The notes: a model not told the origin generated them from the sequence alone. A stretch of 27,621 bases of DNA from an uncultured delta proteobacterium (GCA_963712115.1 CAVQGX010000049.1:1-27621); one strand, 5' to 3'. Shown: positions 341-10,249, counted from the first letter of the stretch. Numbers and translations: made by a program.

Positions 341-414
341 TGGCTGGGGGAGGAGGATTCGAACCCCCGTAGCATGATCCAGAGTCATGCGTCCTACCGC
401 TAGACGATCCCCCA
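341..414 (-). tRNA. tRNA-Gln (anticodon CTG)
   Basis: Reverse complement folds as a cloverleaf: acceptor TGGGGGA/TCCCCCA, anticodon arm CATGA-CTCTGGA-TCATG, T-loop GGTTCGAATCC, encoded CCA. Confidence 0.97.
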
Positions 415-721: not shown

Positions 722-1252
722 TTGAAAGTCACGGTGGATGAGCTTCCAGATATAGGTAGGGTGATTCATTTTCACAAGACTGACTCTTGGTTAGCTTCCA
801 TGACAGAAGATGCGCGTGAGATCACCCTGGCAAGGCCGGTCGAGGTTGACTTGGAAGTCATCCCAGAAGCGGATCGCATTAAGCTAAGGGGTCATCTGCA
901 AGGAGCGTTGCAGGTTGCTTGCAGCAGATGTCTGCAGGATTTCGTCTTGGACCTGGATGAAACCATAGATTTAACCCTTCTGCGACCTCTGTCGGCCGAT
1001 GCGCCCAACGATATAGATCTGCGGCCAGAGGACTTGGACACGGAATTTTTCGATGGCGTAACAATCGATGTGGACCTCATCGTGGCGGAGCAAATCTTCC
1101 TGGCGTTGCCGCAAAAGCCGCTATGTCAACCGGACTGCGGAGGGCTTTGTTCCGGCTGTGGGGCGGAGCTGAACCGAGAAGCGTGTCAATGCGAAAAGAT
1201 TGATAGAGTTTCTGTCTTCGATGCCCTTCGATCTGTGAAGATTGACAGATAA
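722..1252 (+). CDS. yceD: DUF177/YceD family protein
   Basis: CSRCL and LCQPDCGGLCSGCG..LN..CQC motifs; lies directly upstream of rpmF. Confidence 0.92.
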   Translation: MKVTVDELPDIGRVIHFHKTDSWLASMTEDAREITLARPVEVDLEVIPEADRIKLRGHLQGALQVACSRCLQDFVLDLDETIDLTLLRPLSADAPNDIDLRPEDLDTEFFDGVTIDVDLIVAEQIFLALPQKPLCQPDCGGLCSGCGAELNREACQCEKIDRVSVFDALRSVKIDR

Positions 1253-1303: not shown

Positions 1304-1486
1304 ATGGCTCTTCCTAAGAGACGTCACTCAAAGAGTAGAACAAGAAAAAAGCGAACACACTACAAACTCGAGCAACCCACGCTCTCCCTTTGTTCTCAGT
1401 GCAATGAACCAAAATTGCCGCACCATGCATGTGCAAGCTGTGGAACCTATAAGGGAAGAGAAGTCATTAAAACAGAGGAAGTTTAG
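1304..1486 (+). CDS. rpmF: 50S ribosomal protein L32 (Zn-ribbon type)
   Basis: MALPKRRHSKSR...CSQC...PHHACASCGTYKGREV; AGGAG RBS. Confidence 0.97.
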   Translation: MALPKRRHSKSRTRKKRTHYKLEQPTLSLCSQCNEPKLPHHACASCGTYKGREVIKTEEV

Positions 1487-1501
1487 AGGGCCAAGGGTAT
1501 T

Positions 1502-1530
1502 CGGAGGTAAACTGCCGCCGTTTATTTTTT
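1502..1530 (+). terminator. Possible intrinsic terminator after rpmF
   Basis: Imperfect stem CGGAGGTA/TGCCGCCG followed by TTTATTTTTT. Confidence 0.45.
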
Positions 1531-1541
1531 GCTTGAGATGC

Positions 1542-1560
1542 GGACCGGACGGTCCGGTCC
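1542..1560. promoter_or_regulatory. Perfect palindrome upstream of fabH, operator-like
   Basis: GGACCGGAC-G-GTCCGGTCC (9-bp arms, 1-bp centre). Confidence 0.4.
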
Positions 1561-1612
1561 TAAATGATTCAAATATTAGTGTGGACCGCTTGCAACCATA
1601 AAAGGGGGTATC

Positions 1613-2596
1613 GTGAACCGCACGGTCATTTTAGGAACAGGCGCAGCTGCACCCAAAAAGGTTGTCACCAACCAAGACCTGGAGTCTATTGTTGAAACCT
1701 CAGATGAATGGATCGCCACTCGAACCGGTATCAAGAGTCGCCACATTGCAGAGGACGGTGAGACCACGTCTACATTGGCCACAGAAGCAGCCCGCAGGTC
1801 GTTGGAAATGGCAGGGGTTAAACCGGAGGAGATAGATATGATCGTGGTGGGCACAACCTCTCCGGATATGATCATGCCTAATACTGGTGCACTGGTGCAA
1901 AAAAATCTTGGCGCCTCCAGAGCCTTTGCCTTTGACGTCTATGCGGCCTGCAGCGGTTTTGTTTACGCTTTAACCGTAGCAGACAAATTCATAAAGGAGA
2001 GCCCGGGAAAAAAGGCACTGGCTATCGGGTCGGAACTCCTTTCCAGCATAACAGATTGGCAGGATCGTAATACCTGCGTGCTTTTTGGAGATGCGGCAGG
2101 GGCTGTCTTGCTCAGCGGCAGTTCCGACGGCGACCGGGGCATCCTTTCCACTCACTTGCACTCGGACGGTCGTCTCTGGGAGTTGCTTTACATCCCAGGC
2201 GGGGGATGTGTTTATCCACCCAGTGCCGAAATGGCAGAAAAACGAGACTACTGTATCCGCATGCACGGCAACGAGGTTTTCAAGCATGCCGTCCGATCCA
2301 TGGCTGACGTGGCCCGGGAGGCTATGAGAGCAAATGACTTGAAGCCAGAGGATGTAGATCTGTTTATCCCACACCAGGCCAACATTCGTATAATGAATGC
2401 CGTGGCGGAAAGGTTAAAGATTTCGCCCGACCGGGTCTACATGAACATCGAACGTTATGGCAATACCTCATCTGCCAGTATTCCGGTGGCCCTTGATGAG
2501 GCCAATAGATCGGGCCGCCTCAAGCGGGGAGATCTGGTCCTCCTGGATGCTTTTGGTGGAGGATTCACCTGGGGAGCAGTAATGATCCGTTGGTAG
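1613..2596 (+). CDS. fabH: 3-oxoacyl-ACP synthase III
   Basis: TSDEWIATRTGI, catalytic Cys in AACSG, PHQANIRI, GNTSSASIP, FGGGFTWG. Confidence 0.96.
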   Translation: MNRTVILGTGAAAPKKVVTNQDLESIVETSDEWIATRTGIKSRHIAEDGETTSTLATEAARRSLEMAGVKPEEIDMIVVGTTSPDMIMPNTGALVQKNLGASRAFAFDVYAACSGFVYALTVADKFIKESPGKKALAIGSELLSSITDWQDRNTCVLFGDAAGAVLLSGSSDGDRGILSTHLHSDGRLWELLYIPGGGCVYPPSAEMAEKRDYCIRMHGNEVFKHAVRSMADVAREAMRANDLKPEDVDLFIPHQANIRIMNAVAERLKISPDRVYMNIERYGNTSSASIPVALDEANRSGRLKRGDLVLLDAFGGGFTWGAVMIRW

Positions 2597-2637
2597 AAAA
2601 TCTGGAGAGTTGAGCTATGGAGTAGAGGAGGCATTAA

Positions 2638-3807
2638 GTGGACTATTTCTTGACTGAAGAACAGCAGATGATCAAAGAGATTGCAGCCAAAATTGCTACC
2701 GAGAAGGTTCGCCCGGTTCGCGCTGAACTGGACGAGAGCGAAGAGTTTCCATGGGATCTCATGAAGATTATGGCGCAGTCGGATCTCTTCGGGGTCTACC
2801 TGCCGGAAGAGTACGGGGGCTTAGGCGGAGGAGTGTTGGAAAACTGCTTGGCCATTGAAGAACTTGGCCGGGCTTGCATCGGCGTTGCCACTACTTATGC
2901 AGCCAGTGGTCTGGGAGCTTATCCCATACTGCTTCACGGCAGTGAAGAGCAAAAACAAAAGTACCTGCCGGTAATTGCCAGCGGTGAAAAGCTTGCGGCC
3001 TTTGCAGTAACCGAGTCCGGCGCTGGAAGTGACGCAGGGGGTATCCAGACAACTGCTAAACGGGAAGGAGATTTTTACCTACTAAATGGCACCAAACAGT
3101 GGATTACAAACGGCGGTGAGGCTGAGATCTATACTGTTGTCGCCATTACCGACAGGGCCAAAGGGGCCAGGGGTGCAAGCGCCTTTATCGTTGAAAAGGG
3201 GGATCCAGGTTTTTCCTTTGGCAAGAAGGAAAAAAAGATGGGTATCTGCACCTCCGCTACTCGGGAGCTTCTTTTCAATGATTGCAAAATCCCAGCGGAT
3301 CGGTTGATCAGTCGCGAGGGCACGGGATTTATTGTTACCATGAAAACCTTTGACGTGTCGCGGCCGGGGATAGGCGCCTTGGCAGTGGGTCTGAGTCAGG
3401 GGGCACTGGACATTTCTGCGGAATATGCCCGCAAGCGTGTACAGTTCGGCAAGCCCATTATTTCCTTTCAGGCCATCCAGCATATGCTTGCTGATATGGC
3501 CACTGAAACAGAGGCCGCCCGGGCCCTGGTCTATGCCACAGCAAAATACATAGACAGTGGCGCCAAGGACATTTCCAAGTTGTCAGCTATGTCCAAACTC
3601 TTTTCAACCGATGTTGCCATGCGCGTAACCACCAACGCCGTACAAGTCCTTGGAGGTTACGGATATATGCGGGATTACCCGGTGGAAAAGATGATGCGCG
3701 ATGCCAAAATACTGCAGATCTATGAAGGCACGAACCAGATTCAGCGTAACATCATCGGCCAGGAATTGAACAAGGAATACGGAAGGATCAAAGAAACTTT
3801 CTTTTGA
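2638..3807 (+). CDS. Acyl-CoA dehydrogenase (short-chain/Bcd/CarC-like)
   Basis: [38 protein letters not shown], catalytic Glu in [10 protein letters not shown]. Confidence 0.95.
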
Positions 3808-3929
3808 TTTCACATTTCGCATTTGGCATTTCTCATTTATTCATTTTGGGAAAGACATTTTTGGCCTGTTCTCAAAATTGCGATGACAAATGAGCAATGA
3901 GAAATGAGAAATGATCAATGACAAATGGA
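3807..3929. repeat. Inverted pair of 7-bp tandem arrays (ATTTCNC / MAATGAN)
   Basis: atttcac atttcgc atttggc atttctc atttattc (3807-3842) versus cgatgac aaatgag caatgag aaatgag aaatgat caatgac aaatgga (3881-3929). Confidence 0.92.
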
Positions 3930-3938
3930 GCGAAGCGC

Positions 3939-4730
3939 ATGCACGTGGTTGTTTGTATTAAGCAGGTTCCGGATGCAAAGAACGTCCGCATCGACCCTGA
4001 GACCTGCACCTTGGTCCGGCAGGGTGTAGAGAGCATAGTCAATCCCCATGACTGGTACGCGGTGGAAGCCGCTTTGCGCTTCCGAGACGAATACGGAGGC
4101 AAAGTAACAGCTTTGACCATGGGTCCGCCGCAAGCCGAGGAGGCGCTTAGAGAAACCCTTGCCTTGGGAGTGGACGAGGCTGTGCTCTTGAGTGACCGGG
4201 CCTTTGCAGGTGCGGATACCTGGGCCACTTCGCTCACTTTGGCGCGAGCCATTGAAAAGCTAGGACCAGTTGAGTTGGTAATTTGCGGCAAGCAGGCTAT
4301 TGATGGGGACACTGCTCAAGTGGGTCCCGGGCTGGCAGCGCATCTGGATCGACCCTATACCACTTATGCTCGACGGCTGGAGTTGCTCAATGGAAGCCAA
4401 TTGCGGGCTGAGCGCGTCACAGATTTCGGTTACGAGATCGTACAAATGGAACTGCCTGCGGTTGTTACAGTAGTTCGGGAAATTGGTGATCCAAGGATGC
4501 CCGGACTCAAACACAAGATGAAAGCCAAGAAAAAAGAAATTCCGATCTTGGGTGCGGCTGAGTTGAAGCTAAATCCTGAAGAGGTGGGTTTGCAAGGCTC
4601 TTACACCCAAGTAGTAAAGGTATTCAGTCCGCCACCACGTTGTGACCGGGAGATGATCAACGGGGATGCGGAGGAGCAGGCAGAAAAACTTCTCAAACTA
4701 TTACAAGAGGCAAAGGTACCTGGGCTATGA
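3939..4730 (+). CDS. etfB: Electron transfer flavoprotein beta subunit
   Basis: VVCIKQVPD, NPHD, DRAFAGADTWATS, GKQAIDGDTAQVGP. Start moved to ATG 3939 (GGAG upstream; the ORF-track start lies in the repeat). Confidence 0.95.
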   Translation: MHVVVCIKQVPDAKNVRIDPETCTLVRQGVESIVNPHDWYAVEAALRFRDEYGGKVTALTMGPPQAEEALRETLALGVDEAVLLSDRAFAGADTWATSLTLARAIEKLGPVELVICGKQAIDGDTAQVGPGLAAHLDRPYTTYARRLELLNGSQLRAERVTDFGYEIVQMELPAVVTVVREIGDPRMPGLKHKMKAKKKEIPILGAAELKLNPEEVGLQGSYTQVVKVFSPPPRCDREMINGDAEEQAEKLLKLLQEAKVPGL

Positions 4731-5917
4731 AGGCCATAATTGACGGAGAAAAATGTGTAGCATGTGGCGAGTGCCTGGAAGTCTGCCCTGTGGATTCCAT
4801 TGACCTAGTAGATGACGTGGCCCAGGTGGATGATAATTGCACTCTATGTGGACTGTGCGTTGATGTTTGTGACTATGAGGCCATTGGCTTGCCAGAAGTG
4901 CAGACCGTTGAGACAGTCGATTTGGAGTCATACAAGGGTGTCTGGGTTGTTGCCGAGCACCACGATGGTGCAATACATTCTGTTTCATTCGAGTTGCTGG
5001 GCGCGGGGAGAAAGTTGGCCGATAAACTGAAGGTGGAGTTGTCTGCTGTATTGATAGGTGATCAACTGCAGGAAGGGGCCAAGAACCTAATCGGCTACGG
5101 TGCAGATCGAGTGTATTTGGCGGAACATCCGGCTCTCGTTCCTTTCAATGACGAGTCCCACGCCAATGTTCTCACTGAACTCGTCAAGGAGAAAAAACCG
5201 GAGATCCTGCTGGCGGGAGCAACCGCCATGGGTCGTTCTTTTATTCCCCGGGTGGCAGTTGCAGTGGAAACTGGTTTAACTGCTGATTGTACCGGACTGG
5301 ACATTGGTGATGATGGTCTCCTCTATCAGACCCGCCCCGCCTTTGGCGGCAATGTTATGGCTACCATTATCTGTCCGCGTCGGCGCCCGCAAATGGCAAC
5401 GGTCCGACCTATGGTAATGAAGAAGCCTGACTTCGACAAGGAGCGTCAAGGGGGGGTGGAATCTTTTACTCCTAGCCCAAAGGCTGTTACTTCGAGGGTA
5501 AAGGTCTTAGAGACGGTTACCCAAGATCAGGAAACAGTGCGTATAACTGAGGCTGATGTTGTTGTCACCGGTGGCCGCGGCTTGCAAAAAGCGGAAAATT
5601 TCAAAATTCTAGAGGAGGTAGCTCTCCTCCTCGACGGCGCAGTCGGAGCTACCCGCAGTGTGGTGGATGAGGGATGGATGCCCTACAGCCACCAGGTGGG
5701 GCAGACTGGCAAGACGGTATCTCCTAAACTCTACATCGCATGTGGTGTTTCGGGAGCTATTCAGCATGTTGTCGGGATGCAGGGTTCTGAGATTATTGTG
5801 GCGGTGAACAAGGACCCGAGTGCACCTATTTTTGACGTGGTTAATTATGGGGTTGTGGCGGATCTCTTTGACTTTCTGCCGGCACTGGCGAAGAAAATAA
5901 AAGAGCAGCGAAGCTAG
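4727..5917 (+). CDS. etfA: ETF alpha subunit with N-terminal 2[4Fe-4S] ferredoxin domain
   Basis: CVACGECLEVCP and CTLCGLCVDVC at the N-terminus; GLTADCT, RPAFGGN, QVGQTGKTV, GVSGAIQH; ATGA overlap with etfB. Confidence 0.95.
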   Translation: MKAIIDGEKCVACGECLEVCPVDSIDLVDDVAQVDDNCTLCGLCVDVCDYEAIGLPEVQTVETVDLESYKGVWVVAEHHDGAIHSVSFELLGAGRKLADKLKVELSAVLIGDQLQEGAKNLIGYGADRVYLAEHPALVPFNDESHANVLTELVKEKKPEILLAGATAMGRSFIPRVAVAVETGLTADCTGLDIGDDGLLYQTRPAFGGNVMATIICPRRRPQMATVRPMVMKKPDFDKERQGGVESFTPSPKAVTSRVKVLETVTQDQETVRITEADVVVTGGRGLQKAENFKILEEVALLLDGAVGATRSVVDEGWMPYSHQVGQTGKTVSPKLYIACGVSGAIQHVVGMQGSEIIVAVNKDPSAPIFDVVNYGVVADLFDFLPALAKKIKEQRS

Positions 5918-5920
5918 TGA

Positions 5921-5997
5921 GTTCCAAGTTCCATGTTCAAAGTTTAAGGTTTAATGCCCTTTTCTTAACTTGGAACTTGAGACTTTGAACATTGAAC
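5921..5997. repeat. Inverted pair of 7-bp tandem arrays (GTTYMAD / WTKGAAC)
   Basis: gttccaa gttccat gttcaaa gtttaag gtttaat (5921-5955) versus ttaac ttggaac ttgagac tttgaac attgaac (5965-5997). Confidence 0.9.
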
Positions 5998-6019
5998 TTC
6001 AAAGCTGCGGGGAGGAGTT

Positions 6020-6772
6020 ATGGCAGAAAACAGCAAGAAAGTTGCGGTGGTTACTGGAGGTTCTCGAGGCATCGGTAGGGCGATTATCATGGCTCTTGCT
6101 GAGCCTAACTTGACAGTTGTTTTTAATCATTTTGATCCTCCCGAGGATGCGGCAGCTGATGAGACCATCAAGATGGCCAGTGAAAAAGGGTCTGAGATCG
6201 AGGGGGTGCGGCTGGACGTCTCGAACCATCAGGCGGTGCAGGAGTTTATCAATGGTGTAGTGGAGCGGCATGGAAGGATTGACATCCTGGTTAACAATGC
6301 CGGCATCACCAGGGACACTTTGCTGCTGCGGATGAAAGAGGCTGATTGGGATGCGGTGTTGGCAGTGAATCTCAAATCTGTTTTCAATTGCACCCAAGCG
6401 GCCGTCCGGTTCATGACCAAACAACGCTACGGACGGGTAGTCAATATAGCTTCGGTGGTGGGGGCCATGGGTAACGCGGGTCAGGCGAACTACGCCGCCT
6501 CCAAAGCAGGTATTATGGGGTTTACCAAATCTGTGGCCCGAGAGGTGGCGAGCAGGAATGTTACAGTCAATGCAGTGGCTCCCGGGTTTATAGAAACTGA
6601 AATGACGGCCAAGCTCTCCGACAAGGTCAAGGAGGCATTTTTGCTCCAGATTCCCCTGGGCCGGGCAGGGCGGCCCGAGGATGTCGCCCAGTTGGTGAAA
6701 TTTCTGGTTTCAGATGACGCTTCGTACATCACCGGTCAAATTATTCACCTAAACGGCGGGATGTATATGTAG
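6020..6772 (+). CDS. fabG: 3-oxoacyl-ACP reductase
   Basis: TGGSRGIG, NNAGITRD, GQANYAASK, VAPGFIET, NGGMYM. Confidence 0.95.
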   Translation: MAENSKKVAVVTGGSRGIGRAIIMALAEPNLTVVFNHFDPPEDAAADETIKMASEKGSEIEGVRLDVSNHQAVQEFINGVVERHGRIDILVNNAGITRDTLLLRMKEADWDAVLAVNLKSVFNCTQAAVRFMTKQRYGRVVNIASVVGAMGNAGQANYAASKAGIMGFTKSVAREVASRNVTVNAVAPGFIETEMTAKLSDKVKEAFLLQIPLGRAGRPEDVAQLVKFLVSDDASYITGQIIHLNGGMYM

Positions 6773-6865
6773 CAGGCACAAGGCACAGGGTGCACGGCAC
6801 AGGGAAAATGATTGATTGCAGGATCATTGAAAGACCTGCGCCTTATGCCTTGCGCCGTAAGCCTG
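6773..6865. repeat. Inverted pair of 7-bp tandem arrays (AAGGCAC / CCTTGCG)
   Basis: caggcac aaggcac agggtgc acggcac aggg (6773-6804) versus cctgcg ccttatg ccttgcg ccgtaag cctg (6835-6865). Confidence 0.88.
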
Positions 6866-6917
6866 AGAAGAAGGTTTTACAGCAATTTACTGCAAAACTG
6901 TAATTGAGGATTAGGCG

Positions 6918-8159
6918 ATGAAGAGAAGGGTTGTTGTTACTGGGTTTGGGTTGGTCACGCCACTAGGAATCGGAGTGGAGGAGAATTGGTCGGCGTTAGT
7001 GGCAGGCAAGTCGGGAATTGGTCCGATCACCAAGTTCGATGCCAGCGATATGGCTACCAAGATTGCCGGGGAAGTCAAGGATTTCCAGGCGGAGGATTAT
7101 GTCTCCCGCAAGGATGTCAGGCGGATGGATATTTTCACCCAGTACGCCCTGGCAGCGAGCCGCATAGCTGTGGAGGATTCGAAGCTGAACATTAATGGCA
7201 ACAATGCCGATAGAGTGGGAGTTGTTATAGGGTGCGGTCTTGGTGGTCTGAATACGATTGAAAAATTTCACCGTGTTTTGCTGGAGCAAGGACCAAAGAA
7301 AGTAAGCCCTTTCTTTATTCCCATGCTCATTGCCAACATGGCTCCCGGTCAAATCTCCATCGCTTTTGGAGCCAAGGGTCCTAACGTCGCTATCGAAACG
7401 GCCTGTGCTGCCGGCACCCACGCGGTGGGCGACGCTTTTAAACATATTCAACGCGGTATTGCTGATGTGATGATTGCCGGAGGGGTGGAGTCCACTATCA
7501 CGCCTCTGGCTATAAGTGGGTTCAATGCAATGCGAGCCCTTTCAACCCGAAATGATGATCCGCAGAAGGCTTCTCGTCCTTTCGAGCGAGATAGGGACGG
7601 TTTTGTCATGGCCGAGGGTAGCGGCATCGTAATTTTGGAAGCCCTTGACTACGCCCTAGAGCGCGGAGCCCCCATCCATGGAGAGCTAATTGGCTATGGT
7701 CTCACTGGAGATGCCTTCCACATATCGGCTCCGGCTCCGGAAGGTGAGGGAATGGCGCGGTGCATGCAGATGGCCCTGGATGATGCTGGTGTTACTCCGG
7801 AAGAGGTGGACTACATAAATGCACACGGCACCTCCACGGATCTGAATGACAGTTTCGAGACTCGGGCGATAAAAACAGTTTTTGGAGAACACAGTTACAA
7901 GTTGGCTGTTAGCTCTACCAAGTCCATGACTGGACACCTTTTGGGAGGGGCCGGGGGTGTCGAGAGTGTGTTTACAGTGCTCACCATAAAACGTGGAATC
8001 ATTCCTCCCACCATCAATTATGAAAACCAGGATCCCGAGTGCGATCTAGACTACGTTCCCAATGTGGCCCGGGAGGGGAAAGTGAAAACAGCTCTATCCA
8101 ATTCCTTCGGTTTCGGCGGAACCAACGCGGCACTGTTGTTCCGCCAATACGAATCTTGA
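6918..8159 (+). CDS. fabF: 3-oxoacyl-ACP synthase II
   Basis: RRVVVTG, TACAAG (Cys), NAHGTST and GHLLG (His-His), [10 protein letters not shown]. Confidence 0.96.
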
Positions 8160-8177
8160 TAATCGGGAGATTTGAGG

Positions 8178-8609
8178 ATGAAAGTCATTATTGGATGTGA
8201 TCATGCAGGGTTCGCCCTAAAAACCCAGGTAAAAGGTTTGCTTGAAAACATGGGGCATACCGTCGAAGATGCGGGTTGCCAAAGTGAGGACTCTGTTGAT
8301 TATCCTGTCTACGGTAAGGCGGTGGCCAACGGGGTTGCCAAGGGCCAGTTCGCCAAAGGTATACTTATCTGCGGCTCCGGTCTGGGCATGTCTATGATTG
8401 CCAATCGTTTCCCCGGCGTGCGTGCAGCTCTTTGTAACGATCTTTATAGCGCTGTCTTGAGTCGACGACACAATGACGCTAATCTTTTAGTGATGGGGGG
8501 AAGGCTAATCGGCAGTGATTTGGCTGAAGAGATTGTCAGAACTTGGCTGACCACCGAGTTTGATGGCGGGCGCCACGAACGCAGGATAGGTCAACTGGAC
8601 GAAATTTGA
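8178..8609 (+). CDS. rpiB: Ribose-5-phosphate isomerase B
   Basis: GCDHAG, SVDYP, CGSGLG, HNDAN, GGRHERR. ATG 8178 preferred (GGGAG upstream). Confidence 0.95.
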   Translation: MKVIIGCDHAGFALKTQVKGLLENMGHTVEDAGCQSEDSVDYPVYGKAVANGVAKGQFAKGILICGSGLGMSMIANRFPGVRAALCNDLYSAVLSRRHNDANLLVMGGRLIGSDLAEEIVRTWLTTEFDGGRHERRIGQLDEI

Positions 8610-8684
8610 TCATTGCACCTTTACCGTTTCTTTAGCTCCGCTCAGTCCGAGCCAGCAGGTCCCCAATTTCTCATCTGTCTTTTC

Positions 8685-8853
8685 TTAATTAGTGCTCATC
8701 CTAAAACGAGATTTTTCGGACTCGCGCCATCAGCGATCAGCCTTCAGCTTTCAGCGAAATACACATAAATGCTAAAAACTAAGCTGAATGCTCACTGCTG
8801 AACGCTGACAGCTCCAGCCGGAAATCTATGGTTTCCGGATGGATACTAATTAA
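8685..8853. mobile_element. MITE-like element with imperfect 23-bp terminal IRs enclosing an inverted 7-bp array
   Basis: TTAATTAGTGCTCATCCTAAAAC (8685-8707) matches the reverse complement of GTTTCCGGATGGATACTAATTAA (8831-8853) at 18/23 positions; there is a further inner IR ATTTTTCGG/CCGGAAAT. Confidence 0.6.
8728..8813. repeat. Inverted pair of 7-bp tandem arrays (NWTCAGC / GCTGANN)
   Basis: catcagc gatcagc cttcagc tttcagc (8728-8755) versus gctgaat gctcact gctgaac gctgaca gct (8783-8813). Confidence 0.92.
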
Positions 8854-8989
8854 CACTTCCCATTTTGCATTTATCATTATACATTGCGAAATTCTTGTTT
8901 ATTTTCTATCTCACCAATGAAAAAATGGACAGATGAAAAAGGTGAAATAGTGCTGGTAAATAACTATTGCGTCTACAATGAGGCCTAAG

Positions 8990-10249
8990 ATGTCGGACTT
9001 GGAAAAAATAGATCCGCAAGTTGCAGAAGCAATCCGGCTGGAGGAGGAGAGGCAACTTCAAAGGCTGGAGCTCATCGCCTCGGAAAATTTTGCTAGCCCG
9101 GCGGTCAGGGAGGCACAGGGCAGTGTTTTGACCAACAAATATGCGGAGGGCTACCCCGGCCACAGATATTACGGTGGGTGCGAATTTGTCGATACAGCCG
9201 AAAGTCTGGCCATTTCCAGGGCAAAGGAGCTATTTGCAGCTGAATACGCCAATGTCCAGCCCCACTCAGGTTCCCAAGCTAATATGGCAGTCTTTTTCGC
9301 GGTTCTACAGCCGGGAGAAACTATTATGGGGATGGACTTGCGGCACGGAGGCCATCTTACCCACGGCAGCCCAGTCAATTTCTCAGGTAGGCTGTACAAT
9401 GTAATTTCTTATGGGGTGAACCGAGAGACCGAAACTATTGACCTGGAACAGGTCGAGCGACTGGCGAGAGAACACCGTCCCAAACTGATTATTGCCGGTG
9501 CGAGCGCCTATCCTCGGAGCATTGACTTCGGTTTTTTTCAGAAGGTATGCGAGAACATCGGTGCTTACTTTATGGTGGACATGGCCCACATAGCTGGACT
9601 GGTAGCTGCTGGGGTTCATCCTAGCCCTGTTCCCCACAGTGACTTCGTCACTTCCACCACCCACAAGACTCTCAGAGGACCTAGAGGGGGCCTTATACTT
9701 GCTAGGCAGAGCCACGCCGACAAGCTCAATAAAGGGATTTTCCCCGGCATACAGGGTGGGCCACTCATGCATGTCATAGCCGCAAAGGCAGTGGCGTTCA
9801 AGGAGGCCTTGAGTGCCGAGTTTCGCAATTACCAGAGGCAGATAGTGAGCAATGCTAGACGATTAGCAGCGGAGTTGCTGGAGAAGGGCTACCGCCTGGT
9901 CTCTGGGGGGACAGACAACCATCTGATGCTTGTTGATTTAAGGAAAAACGGGCTGACCGGTGCCCAAGCTGAAATCACCCTGGACAAGGCGTGGATTACC
10001 GTCAACAAGAACAGCATTCCATTTGATCCGGAAAAGCCGGCTGTCACCAGCGGCATCCGGGTAGGGACCCCTGCAGTGACTTCACGAGGGATGGAAGAGG
10101 AGGATATGGCCGCAATAGCTCAGTTTATTCACCAGGCCCTGGAAGCTCACGAGGATGCCGATGGCATAGAGAGGGTGCGACGGCAGGTTGCCGATTTCTG
10201 TTCCCAGTTCCCTCTTCATAAACCCGTATACGAGAGGGAGGGAAGCTGA
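8990..10249 (+). CDS. glyA: Serine hydroxymethyltransferase
   Basis: [25 protein letters not shown] lysine in [15 protein letters not shown] 8990 preferred (GAGG upstream). Confidence 0.97.

What the first reader, a model, noticed from the sequence alone, without database searches (positions are those of the whole stretch)
1613..8159. Putative electron-bifurcating acyl-CoA dehydrogenase/ETF module embedded in the fatty-acid synthesis operon
Seen: fabH-acd-etfB-etfA-fabG-fabF are co-oriented with short spacers, and no fabI/fabK/fabL/fabV gene is in the window. EtfB carries NPxD, GADTWAT and GKQAIDGDTAQVG. Established: such ETFs with a Bcd-like partner (clostridial Bcd-EtfAB, Acetobacterium CarCDE) reduce enoyl-CoA with NADH while also reducing ferredoxin. 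Inference: the complex may perform the enoyl-reduction step of FAS II on enoyl-ACP or enoyl-CoA, i.e. an unrecognised enoyl reductase class that recovers reduced ferredoxin from lipid synthesis. An alternative is that it makes saturated or branched short acyl-CoA primers for the adjacent FabH.
Basis: partly seen in the sequence, partly recalled or inferred. Interest (0 to 1): 0.8.

Follow-up and report, generated by a model that had tools for sequence, protein, structure and literature searches.

The report
Flavoprotein enoyl reductase inside fatty-acid operon
A butyryl-CoA-dehydrogenase-like flavoenzyme and its electron-bifurcating partner sit in the fatty-acid synthesis operon of many anaerobic bacteria, where the enoyl reductase gene usually lies, so they may be an unrecognised, energy-saving version of that enzyme.

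Summary
yceD-rpmF-fabH-ACAD-etfB-etfA-fabG-fabF are co-oriented with short spacers, and the window holds no FabI/K/L/V.

The genome does carry a canonical FabV, in two copies. FabV was found only in this genus among 151 genomes of the phylum.

The synteny is strongly conserved. Of 80 ACAD orthologue loci (66-80% identity, several phyla), 60 lie among fab genes, usually between fabH/plsX and fabD/fabG. That is the slot FabK holds in an ACAD-negative relative.

In a phylum sample, 74 of 151 genomes have the orthologue. True FabI occurs in 1 of these 74 against 21 of the other 77. Twenty-one orthologue-bearing genomes (91-100% complete, 11 families) gave no FabI/L/K/V-like hit.

A closed 1.14 Mb Omnitrophota genome has a full FAS II set and fabF-ACAD-etfBA. 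It shows no known enoyl reductase, thiolase or crotonase.

The ETF is of the bifurcating CarDE type.

Best reading (0.6): an ACAD/ETF enoyl-ACP reductase that also reduces ferredoxin. No biochemistry exists, and eight literature searches found nothing in print.

The parts
722..1252 (+). yceD, the conserved first gene of the cluster. A promoter-like site lies at 648-675.
   Evidence: PF02620, 93.8 bits. Promoter-like match of 11 of 12. yceD-rpmF precedes the module in most related loci.
1304..1486 (+). rpmF (ribosomal protein L32)
   Evidence: 60-aa ORF. Matched by tblastn in related loci at 42-70% identity.
1613..2596 (+). fabH, beta-ketoacyl-ACP synthase III
   Evidence: TIGR00747, 423.6 bits against a cut-off of 292.1.
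2638..3807 (+). Bcd-like acyl-CoA dehydrogenase-family flavoprotein, the candidate catalytic subunit of the enoyl reductase
   Evidence: PF02771, PF02770 and PF00441. Best NCBIfam hit is AcrC at 440.7, below its 640 cut-off. Best solved relative is 5ol2_C at 407 bits. It keeps all 78 invariant columns of 39 fab-linked orthologues, including E363 in YEGT.
3918..4730 (+). etfB, the small ETF subunit of the bifurcating type. The true start may be the Met at 3939.
   Evidence: PF01012. Best solved relatives are CarD 6fah_B (240.7 bits) and four other subunits of bifurcating complexes (205-226 bits), against 112 bits for human ETF. Motifs NPHD, GADTWAT and GKQAIDGDTAQVG are present.
4727..5917 (+). 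etfA, the large ETF subunit, with an N-terminal 2x[4Fe-4S] ferredoxin domain (about 4727-4900). It overlaps etfB by 4 nt.
   Evidence: Fer4 families plus PF01012 and PF00766. Two CxxCxxCxxxC motifs. Full-length match to CarE 6fah_A, 396 bits over residues 7-391.
6020..6772 (+). fabG, 3-oxoacyl-ACP reductase
   Evidence: TIGR01830, 342.6 bits against a cut-off of 297.75.
6918..8159 (+). fabF, beta-ketoacyl-ACP synthase II
   Evidence: TIGR03150, 661.4 bits against a cut-off of 493.75.
8172..10249 (+). rpiB and glyA, the conserved downstream end of the same gene string
   Evidence: TIGR01120 and NF000586. fabF-rpiB-glyA recurs in related loci with and without the module.

Best explanation
The ACAD (2638-3807) and the CarDE-like EtfB/EtfA (3918-5917) form a flavin-based enoyl-thioester reductase that belongs to type II fatty-acid synthesis.

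Proposed path:
- NADH reduces the bifurcating FAD of EtfB.
- One electron passes by way of the EtfA FAD to the FAD of the ACAD, which reduces trans-2-enoyl-ACP to acyl-ACP.
- The other, low-potential electron leaves through the two [4Fe-4S] clusters at the N-terminus of EtfA to ferredoxin.
- Two rounds give 2 NADH + Fd(ox) + enoyl-ACP -> 2 NAD+ + Fd(red) + acyl-ACP.

Lipid synthesis would then return one reduced ferredoxin per elongation cycle.

Shown here: the gene identities, the bifurcating-type sequence affinities, the conserved placement in fab operons, and the distribution relative to the known reductases.

Inferred: the substrate (ACP rather than CoA thioesters, and the chain-length range), the reductive direction, and the coupling to ferredoxin.

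In this organism the module is not the only enoyl reductase, because its genus also carries FabV.
For: 1. Synteny.
- Of 80 loci encoding orthologues (66-80% identity), 60 are co-linear with at least one fab gene. The organisms include Thermodesulfobacteriota, Nitrospirota, Omnitrophota, Margulisiibacteriota and Saganbacteria.
- 44 of those 60 also have etfBA, and 2 more loci hold only yceD/rpmF.
- The ACAD is the best conserved protein of the cluster: 66-80% identity, against FabF 55-69%, FabG 46-60% and FabH 44-60%.

2. Same slot as a known reductase.
- The ACAD-negative genome G072 has yceD-rpmF-plsX-fabH-FabK-fabD-fabG-acpP-fabF. Its FabK scores 502.6 against a 453.1 cut-off.
- The module lies between fabH/plsX/rpmF and fabD/fabG in 46 loci.

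3. Phylum sample of 151 genomes, 150 of them drawn at 90% or more completeness.
- Orthologue (500 bits or more): 74 genomes.
- True FabI (237 bits or more): 1 of 74 against 21 of 77.
- FabV: only G000 and its congener G186.
- No hit to the FabI model (E<=1e-25, a level that also catches FabL), to the FabK model (E<=1e-20) or to FabV: 21 of 74 orthologue-bearing genomes (11 families, 91-100% complete) against 7 of 77.
- 20 of the 21 were fetched. In 18 the ACAD sits inside the yceD-rpmF...fabF string.

4. Closed 1.14 Mb genome G035.
- It has plsX-fabH-fabD, fabZ and fabG-acpP-fabF-ACAD-etfB-x-etfA.
- Its only SDR hit is FabG.
- It has no FabV hit and no thiolase or FadB hit at E<=1.
- Its only NMO-like hit is an IMPDH-family protein.

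5. The ETF is of the bifurcating type.
- The best solved relatives are CarE and CarD of 6fah, followed by 4kpu, 7koe, 7qh2 and 5ol2. Non-bifurcating ETFs score far lower.
- The best ACAD relative is the Bcd of the C. difficile Bcd/EtfAB complex.
- EtfA orthologues (E<=1e-90) occur in 64 of 74 ACAD-positive against 13 of 77 ACAD-negative genomes.

6. Tree. The 81 orthologues (80 loci plus the window's own ACAD) separate from the genome's four other ACADs on a branch of length 0.92 (SH-aLRT 99). Their grouping follows phylum labels. This is a quick tree, because the careful search did not finish.

7. Context away from fab clusters. Where the orthologue lies outside a fab cluster, its neighbours are unrelated housekeeping genes rather than beta-oxidation genes. 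Ten flanking ORFs from 3 loci were scanned.
Against: - This genome has two FabV genes above the equivalog cut-off (544 against 400). The module is therefore not needed here as the sole reductase.
- Co-occurrence with known reductases is common. 53 of 74 orthologue-bearing genomes have some FabI-, FabL- or FabK-like hit, or FabV.
- Family f17 has a true FabL (381 against 328).
- G051, G003 and G005 have true FabI.
- L101 has a FabK-like gene in the same fab cluster.
- FabK-like (NMO) hits are almost as frequent with the module (43 of 74) as without it (59 of 77).
- 7 of 77 genomes without the orthologue also lack any recognised reductase. The four whose fab clusters were examined show plain clusters. 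Other unrecognised reductases therefore exist, so absence of the known ones does not by itself identify the ACAD.
- 18 of 80 loci show no fab gene beside the ACAD (13 alone, 5 with etf only), and 2 more hold only yceD/rpmF.
- 10 of 74 orthologue-bearing genomes gave no EtfA hit at E<=1e-90.
- No enzyme of this family has been shown to act on ACP thioesters of C4-C18 in the reductive direction. That clostridial Bcd is short-chain specific is recalled, not tested here.
- Nothing here tests ferredoxin reduction.
Confidence: 0.6

Rival explanations
1. The module is an acyl-ACP (or acyl-CoA) dehydrogenase that works in the oxidative direction within lipid synthesis. For example it might re-introduce a trans-2 double bond for anaerobic unsaturated fatty-acid synthesis, as the unrelated FabX of Helicobacter does, or it might modify acyl chains. 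ETF would carry the electrons away.
For: - The ACAD family normally works as a dehydrogenase.
- The placement in fab operons fits any FAS-linked role.
- Co-occurrence with FabL, FabI, FabV or a FabK-like gene, once in the same cluster in L101, would be natural if the module were not a reductase.
- FabX shows that a flavoenzyme dehydrogenase can belong to FAS II (PMC8626469, abstract seen in the listings).
Against: - The ETF is closest to NADH-dependent bifurcating ETFs, not to the acceptor-type ETFs of beta-oxidation.
- G035 and 18 further good genomes would then have no enoyl reductase at all.
- No quinone-linked ETF oxidase gene lies in the window cluster. The rest of the genome was not searched for one.
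Confidence: 0.13
2. The module makes saturated short acyl-CoA primers, such as butyryl-CoA or branched acyl-CoA, for the adjacent FabH.
For: - fabH directly precedes the ACAD in the window (41-nt spacer) and in 33 of 80 loci.
- The nearest solved relative is a butyryl-CoA dehydrogenase.
Against: - In 25 of 80 loci the module follows plsX, rpmF or fabF with no fabH beside it.
- G035 has no thiolase or FadB-type hydratase/dehydrogenase hit at E<=1, so no route to crotonyl-CoA was seen.
- This reading does not explain the near-exclusion with FabI or the genomes without any known reductase.
Confidence: 0.1
3. The ACAD/ETF pair is an enoyl-ACP reductase, but ETF serves only as an NADH-to-ACAD electron wire and no ferredoxin is reduced. 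The ferredoxin domain would have a structural role or an intake role, for example accepting electrons from reduced ferredoxin.
For: - All the genomic evidence for a reductase role applies equally.
- Some orthologue-bearing genomes have EtfA forms without the ferredoxin domain beside the ACAD. The alignments start at query residue 60-63 in G116, G147 and G178.
Against: - The ferredoxin domain with eight cysteines is kept in the window and in most adjacent EtfA orthologues, whose alignments start at residue 1-8.
- The whole ETF is closest to complexes solved as bifurcating.
Confidence: 0.12
4. The module is a catabolic or fermentative Bcd/EtfAB (butyrate or fatty-acid metabolism) that lies in the fab cluster by accident.
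For: - Public records name the protein butyryl-CoA dehydrogenase or acyl-CoA dehydrogenase family protein.
- The genome has beta-oxidation genes elsewhere, with FadA/FadB-like hits on C46, C20 and C2.
Against: - The placement is conserved in 60 of 80 loci across phyla.
- The orthologues form their own group, apart from the genome's other ACADs.
- The module is kept in a 1.14 Mb genome without beta-oxidation hits.
Confidence: 0.05

Closest known systems
Clostridial electron-bifurcating butyryl-CoA dehydrogenase/EtfAB (solved as 5ol2, C. difficile; 4kpu/4l1f, Acidaminococcus)
   Same: The ACAD fold is shared, and the best solved match of the window ACAD is 5ol2_C at 407 bits. The ETF subunits match the bifurcating ETFs at 205-304 bits. 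The YEGT glutamate is conserved.
   Different: - The window module lies in a fab operon, not a butyrate or crotonyl-CoA operon.
- Its EtfA has an extra ferredoxin domain.
- The orthologue group is 59-90% identical within itself but scores below the NCBIfam AcrC cut-off (440.7 against 640).
- The proposed substrate is enoyl-ACP of all chain lengths, which is inferred.
Caffeyl-CoA reductase CarCDE of Acetobacterium woodii (6fah)
   Same: EtfA matches CarE over its full length, including the N-terminal 2x[4Fe-4S] domain (396 bits, residues 7-391). EtfB's best match is CarD at 240.7 bits.
   Different: The ACAD is closer to Bcd (407 bits) than to CarC (319.6 bits). The gene context is fatty-acid synthesis, not caffeate respiration.
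FabK, the FMN-dependent enoyl-ACP reductase of fab operons
   Same: It holds the same place in the operon. In G072, FabK lies between fabH and fabD, where the ACAD-etfBA module lies in 8 loci.
   Different: The fold is unrelated (a TIM-barrel NMO family). FabK is a single subunit and conserves no energy. FabK-like genes co-occur with the module in many genomes.
FabV, FabI and FabL (NAD(P)H-dependent enoyl-ACP reductases)
   Same: They catalyse the reaction proposed here. FabV is present in this genome. True FabI is nearly exclusive with the module.
   Different: They are SDR-type or FabV-type single proteins. The window ACAD hit no FabI, FabL or FabV model.
ACAD-family enzymes acting on carrier-protein thioesters (MbtN acyl-ACP dehydrogenase, prolyl-PCP dehydrogenases)
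   Same: They show that the ACAD fold can accept carrier-protein-bound substrates. Weak family matches were seen (4irn, 6af6).
   Different: The window ACAD scores 76.8 against a 700 cut-off for MbtN and 254.8 against 650 for RedW-type enzymes. Those enzymes oxidise and do not use a bifurcating ETF (recalled).

Membership tests
Acyl-CoA dehydrogenase superfamily | N-terminal, middle and C-terminal ACAD domains | tested here: met
   PF02771 128.3 bits, PF02770 89.8 bits and PF00441 181 bits, all above their cut-offs.
Acyl-CoA dehydrogenase superfamily | Catalytic glutamate in the C-terminal YEGT motif. Its role as the catalytic base is recalled. | tested here: met
   E363-G364-T365 are invariant in 39 fab-linked orthologues including the window protein. 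The motif aligns with YEGT of 5ol2_C.
NCBIfam equivalogs of characterised short-chain ACADs (AcrC NF042972 and others) | Whole-protein score at or above the curated cut-off | tested here: not met
   The best hit is 440.7 against a 640 cut-off. None of the 24 listed families reaches its cut-off.
Clostridial Bcd (butyrate pathway) | Works with thiolase, 3-hydroxybutyryl-CoA dehydrogenase and crotonase, and is usually encoded beside them (recalled) | tested here: not met
   The neighbours are fab genes. G035 gives no FadA- or FadB-type hit at E<=1.
Bifurcating (NADH-dependent) ETF | Closest sequence relatives are ETFs of bifurcating complexes.
   The top five solved hits of both subunits belong to 6fah, 4kpu, 7koe, 7qh2 and 5ol2. 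Non-bifurcating ETFs score 112-180 bits. The motifs were read.
Bifurcating (NADH-dependent) ETF | NCBIfam cut-offs of named ETF models (NF040731, NF042971, NF042970) | tested here: not met
   295.5 against 445, 230 against 475 and 363.5 against 600.
Bifurcating (NADH-dependent) ETF | NADH-dependent reduction of ferredoxin coupled to reduction of the high-potential substrate | not testable with these tools
   This needs an anaerobic enzyme assay.
CarE-type EtfA | N-terminal ferredoxin domain with two [4Fe-4S] motifs fused to EtfA | tested here: met
   Fer4-family hits at residues 3-55. C10/13/16/20 and C38/41/44/48 are present. Full-length match to CarE.
Enoyl-ACP reductase (functional class) | Reduces trans-2-enoyl-ACP in FAS II | not testable with these tools
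   Only genomic inference is available.
Known enoyl-ACP reductase families FabI/FabL, FabK and FabV | Homology of the window ACAD or ETF to these families | tested here: not met
   No such family appears among the hits of the ACAD, EtfB or EtfA. If the module is a reductase it is a separate class.
FabV (elsewhere in this genome) | Score at or above the NF043048 equivalog cut-off | tested here: met
   544 bits against 400 for C43:129330-130502. A second copy on C70 is 97.7% identical.
Carrier-protein-dependent ACADs (MbtN, RedW/PigA type) | Score at or above the NCBIfam cut-off | tested here: not met
   NF037942 76.8 against 700, NF045652 254.8 against 650 and NF053553 244.8 against 500.

The most novel reading that the evidence does not exclude
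The fab-linked ACAD with its CarDE-like ETF is a fifth, non-homologous class of bacterial enoyl-ACP reductase.
- It is spread through anaerobic lineages. About half of the sampled Thermodesulfobacteriota have it, as do Nitrospirota, Omnitrophota, Margulisiibacteriota and others.
- It would couple each elongation cycle of fatty-acid synthesis to ferredoxin reduction by flavin-based electron bifurcation.
- An anabolic pathway would thus feed the cell's low-potential electron pool.
Probability: 0.5. Interest if true: 0.9.

Novelty: new variant of a known kind. Interest (0 to 1): 0.82.

Why it matters
- Four enoyl-ACP reductase families are known, and some genomes have none of them. This module would fill that gap for a large set of anaerobes.
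- It would be the first case of flavin-based electron bifurcation built into a core biosynthetic pathway.
- The roughly 300 mV drop from NADH to the enoyl thioester is wasted by FabI-type enzymes (potentials recalled from the Bcd/EtfAB literature). Here it would be partly recovered as reduced ferredoxin, about seven per palmitate. That matters to organisms living near the thermodynamic limit, such as syntrophs and sulfate reducers.
- It would change how lipid hydrogen-isotope signals, redox budgets and metabolic models of sediment anaerobes are read.
- It would correct thousands of database records now named butyryl-CoA dehydrogenase.
- The question can be tested directly with a three-protein anaerobic assay.

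Tried and rejected
- Docking. Complex prediction with two ACAD copies, FAD and the genome's ACP (alignments A2 and A1) gave 'no support' (score 0.00). This is no evidence either way.
- FabK anticorrelation. A simple test failed because NMO-family hits are numerous, up to 9 per genome, and occur with and without the module. Only the strict tallies are used.
- Handle limit. 50 of the 80 were searched instead. FabV was found in 0 of 50, true FabI in 2 of 50, and 12 of 50 had no FabI-like, FabK-like or FabV hit. The completeness of these 50 genomes is not given.
- Promoter and terminator scan. Terminator-like sites numbered 18 against 11.5 +/- 3.1 in shuffles. None on the + strand lies in a spacer between fabH and fabF. 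This is only weakly informative.
- RNA. Contigs from RNA libraries of three studies, at 95-99% identity, cover the region. Single contigs bridge rpmF/fabH, fabH/ACAD and etfB/etfA. Such contigs may hold DNA and come from relatives, so this is no proof of transcription or of one transcript.
- Literature. Eight searches and passages of two papers (PMC4916218, PMC5317091) gave nothing on an ACAD/ETF enoyl-ACP reductase. Subscription journals are not covered, and supplements were not opened.
- Contamination by FabV was considered and rejected. A congener with 1% contamination also has FabV.
- A structural reading of CoA against ACP binding residues was not attempted, because no coordinates are returned and my memory of the contact residues is unreliable.

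Full report
**What is in the window**

The window is a whole 27,621-base contig (C49) of a metagenome-assembled genome: 4.9 Mb, 70 contigs, 94.4% complete, 6% contamination.

On the + strand lie these genes:
- yceD (722-1252)
- rpmF (1304-1486)
- fabH (1613-2596)
- an acyl-CoA dehydrogenase-family gene (ACAD, 2638-3807)
- etfB (3918-4730)
- etfA (4727-5917)
- fabG (6020-6772)
- fabF (6918-8159)
- then rpiB, glyA, a dCMP deaminase, nrdR, the riboflavin genes, nusB, leuS and murJ

The spacers in the fab part are 41, 110, -4, 102 and 145 nt.

Two things were not in the finding:
- EtfA begins with a ferredoxin domain bearing two CxxCxxCxxxC motifs.
- The cluster lacks plsX, fabD and acpP. In this genome fabD lies on C18 and two acpP genes lie on C7 and C8.

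**The premise about enoyl reductases**

Whole-genome searches found no FabK. TIGR03151 scored 23 bits at best, and PF03060 scored 43 bits at best in a 500-aa frame. They found no FabI or FabL either: the best FabI-model score, 76.5 bits, belongs to a second FabG.

The genome does hold two FabV genes, on C43 and C70. The C43 copy scores 544 bits against the 400-bit equivalog cut-off, and the two copies are 97.7% identical. They lie in mirror-image regions beside an SDR, an aldehyde dehydrogenase and a molybdopterin oxidoreductase, not beside fab genes.

FabV was found in only 2 of 151 genomes of the phylum sample, this one and its congener G186 (1% contamination), and in 0 of 50 genomes that carry ACAD orthologues. 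It is therefore a real acquisition specific to this genus. 'No canonical reductase' holds for the window but not for the organism.

**Synteny**

A scan of one genome per species returned 80 loci that encode proteins 66-80% identical to the ACAD. By record title they come from Syntrophobacteraceae, Desulfobulbales, Nitrospirota/Thermodesulfovibrionia, Omnitrophota, Margulisiibacteriota, Saganbacteria, Elusimicrobiota and others.

I annotated them by tblastn with the window proteins and E. coli PlsX, FabD, AcpP and FabZ. The result:
- 60 of 80 have the ACAD co-linear with at least one fab gene, and 44 of those also have etfBA
- 2 more sit after yceD-rpmF on truncated contigs
- 5 have etfBA only
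- 13 stand alone

The module lies between fabH, plsX or rpmF on one side and fabD or fabG on the other in 46 loci. It lies directly after fabF in 7, mostly Omnitrophota. A typical string is yceD-rpmF-plsX-fabH-ACAD-etfB-etfA-(fabD)-fabG-acpP-fabF-rpiB-glyA.

The ACAD is the most conserved protein of the string. It shares 78 invariant columns across 39 fab-linked orthologues.

A quick maximum-likelihood tree puts all 81 orthologues apart from the genome's four other ACADs, on a branch of 0.92 with support 99. It groups them largely by phylum label, with the loci not linked to fab genes nested inside (the careful search did not finish). Where the orthologue stands alone, the flanking genes scanned (10 ORFs from 3 loci) are unrelated housekeeping genes.

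**Same slot as FabK**

In G072, a genome of the same phylum without the orthologue, the string reads yceD-rpmF-plsX-fabH-FabK-fabD-fabG-acpP-fabF-rpiB. Its FabK scores 502.6 bits against the 453.1-bit cut-off. The ACAD-etfBA module therefore sits where a proven type of enoyl reductase sits in a relative. Only one of the 80 loci, L101 from Margulisiibacteriota, has a FabK-like gene in the same cluster as the module.

**Distribution against the known reductases**

I searched a sample of 150 genomes of the phylum, drawn at 90% or more completeness, plus G000. The thresholds were my own.

| Feature | With orthologue (74) | Without orthologue (77) |
|---|---|---|
| True FabI (237 bits or more) | 1 | 21 |
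| Any FabI-model hit at E<=1e-25 | 15 | 42 |
| FabK-model hit at E<=1e-20 | 43 | 59 |
| FabV | 2 (own genus) | 0 |
| None of the three | 21 | 7 |

- Orthologues were counted at 500 bits or more (59-90% identity). Nine further genomes have only paralogues of 470 bits or less. Presence is all-or-none within most families.
- The FabI-model threshold of E<=1e-25 also catches FabL. The 157-bit hit in G106 is a true FabL, at 381 bits against a 328-bit cut-off.
- FabK-model hits often come as many paralogues in one genome.
- The 21 orthologue-bearing genomes without any hit belong to 11 families and are 91-100% complete. I fetched 20 of them, and 18 have the ACAD inside the yceD-rpmF...fabF string. 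The two exceptions (G145 and G176, 59% identity) have ACAD-etfBA elsewhere.
- Of the 7 hit-less genomes without the orthologue, I queried five. The four that gave a FabF match have plain fab clusters with no reductase gene, and G066 gave no FabF hit.

Related genomes are not independent, so I give counts and no test statistic.

**A closed, reduced genome**

G035 is a 1,137,816-base Omnitrophota chromosome by its title. It holds plsX-fabH-fabD, fabZ, and fabG-acpP-fabF-ACAD-etfB-(282-aa ORF)-etfA.

By tblastn at E<=1:
- its only SDR resembling FabG, FabI or FabL is FabG itself
- it has no FabV hit
- it has no thiolase hit and no FadB-type hit
- it has one ACAD and one ETF

Its single NMO-like hit is an IMPDH-family protein (175 bits). 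One zinc alcohol-dehydrogenase-type protein lies beside a DeoC aldolase. It cannot be fully excluded as a reductase, but it has no fab context.

This genome has every FAS II step except a recognised enoyl reductase. It has no pathway that would give a free-standing butyryl-CoA dehydrogenase a substrate.

**What kind of flavoprotein system this is**

- The ACAD's nearest solved relative is the Bcd of the C. difficile Bcd/EtfAB complex (5ol2_C, 407 bits). CarC scores 319.6 bits.
- EtfA matches CarE of the Acetobacterium caffeyl-CoA reductase over its full length, ferredoxin domain included (396 bits). EtfB matches CarD (240.7 bits).
- The next hits of both subunits are the ETFs of other bifurcating complexes. 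Non-bifurcating ETFs score 112-180 bits.
- None of the three proteins reaches the cut-off of any NCBIfam equivalog.
- EtfA orthologues (E<=1e-90) occur in 64 of 74 ACAD-positive and 13 of 77 ACAD-negative genomes, often 1-3 kb from the ACAD. In families whose fab-cluster ACAD has no adjacent ETF they lie elsewhere.

**Mechanism proposed**

By analogy with Bcd/EtfAB and CarCDE (established for those enzymes, inferred here):
1. NADH reduces the bifurcating FAD on EtfB.
2. One electron goes by way of the EtfA FAD to the ACAD FAD and on to the enoyl thioester.
3. The other goes through the two [4Fe-4S] clusters of the EtfA N-terminus to ferredoxin.

FabH, FabG, FabZ and FabF act on ACP thioesters, so a reductase serving them must accept enoyl-ACP. 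ACAD-family enzymes that act on carrier-protein thioesters exist, but this protein is not a member of their NCBIfam families.

I put 0.6 on the reductase reading. Within it, ferredoxin coupling is likelier than not.

**What weighs against it**

- The genus has FabV.
- Co-occurrence with FabL, FabI or FabK-like genes is frequent.
- Some genomes without the module also lack every known reductase.
- There is no biochemical precedent for this substrate range.
- A quarter of the orthologue loci (20 of 80) show no fab gene beside the ACAD.

**Comparison with what is known, and novelty**

The parts are known kinds: a Bcd-like ACAD and a CarDE-like bifurcating ETF. The role is a known one, enoyl-ACP reduction. 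Their combination inside FAS II is not described in anything I could find:
- Eight full-text searches returned nothing relevant.
- The two papers whose passages I read do not mention it.
- Public records call the protein butyryl-CoA dehydrogenase or acyl-CoA dehydrogenase family protein. These names appear among the 120 best of at least 7,995 related cluster representatives.

The library does not cover subscription journals. I opened no supplements.

I file it as a new variant of a known kind. If the assay bears it out, it is a fifth class of enoyl-ACP reductase.

**Other tests**

- A complex prediction of the ACAD with ACP gave no verdict.
- RNA-library contigs from three studies cover the genes and bridge some junctions. 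This is weak and is listed only under things tried.

Noticed in passing
window 341-414 (-): tRNA-Gln (anticodon CTG). It is the only Rfam match in the window at gathering threshold, so no FMN riboswitch was reported ahead of the ribD-ribE-ribBA-ribH genes.
   Followed up: no
window 1486-1613 and 6772-6918; G000 C18:92240-93085, C7:41321-41536, C8:29929-30147: The window's fab cluster lacks plsX, fabD and acpP, which most related clusters hold. fabD and two acpP copies lie on other contigs. E. coli PlsX found no match anywhere in this genome at E<=1e-5, though the genome is only 94% complete.
   Followed up: partly
G000 C43:118000-137071 (L020) and C70:9000-27355 (L021): FabV lies in two mirror-image, near-identical regions (FabV 97.7% identical). 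Both hold an SDR, an aldehyde dehydrogenase, a molybdopterin oxidoreductase and a NapH/NapG-like iron-sulfur protein. Whether this is a true duplication or two strains in one bin is open.
   Followed up: partly
G000 C46:37600-42865, 60045-60872 and 84215-85189: A second FAS-like gene set: two FabF-like genes, a FabZ-like gene, an ACP-like gene, a second FabG, a FabD-like gene and a FabH. It may serve a specialised lipid or polyketide. Beta-oxidation-like genes lie further along the same contig.
   Followed up: no
L059:12040-12888 (G035): A 282-aa ORF sits between etfB and etfA in the closed Omnitrophota genome. It has no Pfam or NCBIfam match and was not seen in the other 79 loci.
   Followed up: partly
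G064, G066, G071, G080, G117, G122, G148 (L185-L188): Seven good genomes of the phylum have neither the ACAD orthologue nor any FabI/L/K/V-like hit. The four examined have plain yceD-rpmF-plsX-(fabH-fabD)-fabG-acpP-fabF strings, so yet another unrecognised enoyl reductase may exist.
   Followed up: partly
L101:14947-17393 (Margulisiibacteriota): One fab cluster holds both ACAD-etfBA and a FabK-like gene (about 179 bits on TIGR03151) between acpP and fabF.
   Followed up: no
L174:4727-5827 (G048), with similar 366-381-aa frames in G004, G007, G008, G010, G011, G014 and G018: NMO-family proteins of about 370 aa score only 112-147 bits on the FabK model, in genomes that carry the ACAD. By length they recall the FabX dehydrogenase/isomerase of Helicobacter (recalled, not tested), so they may not be reductases.
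   Followed up: no
L197, L199, L203 (G059, G135, G196): In these clusters tblastn found ...ACAD-fabD-acpP-fabF with no fabG between fabD and acpP.
   Followed up: no
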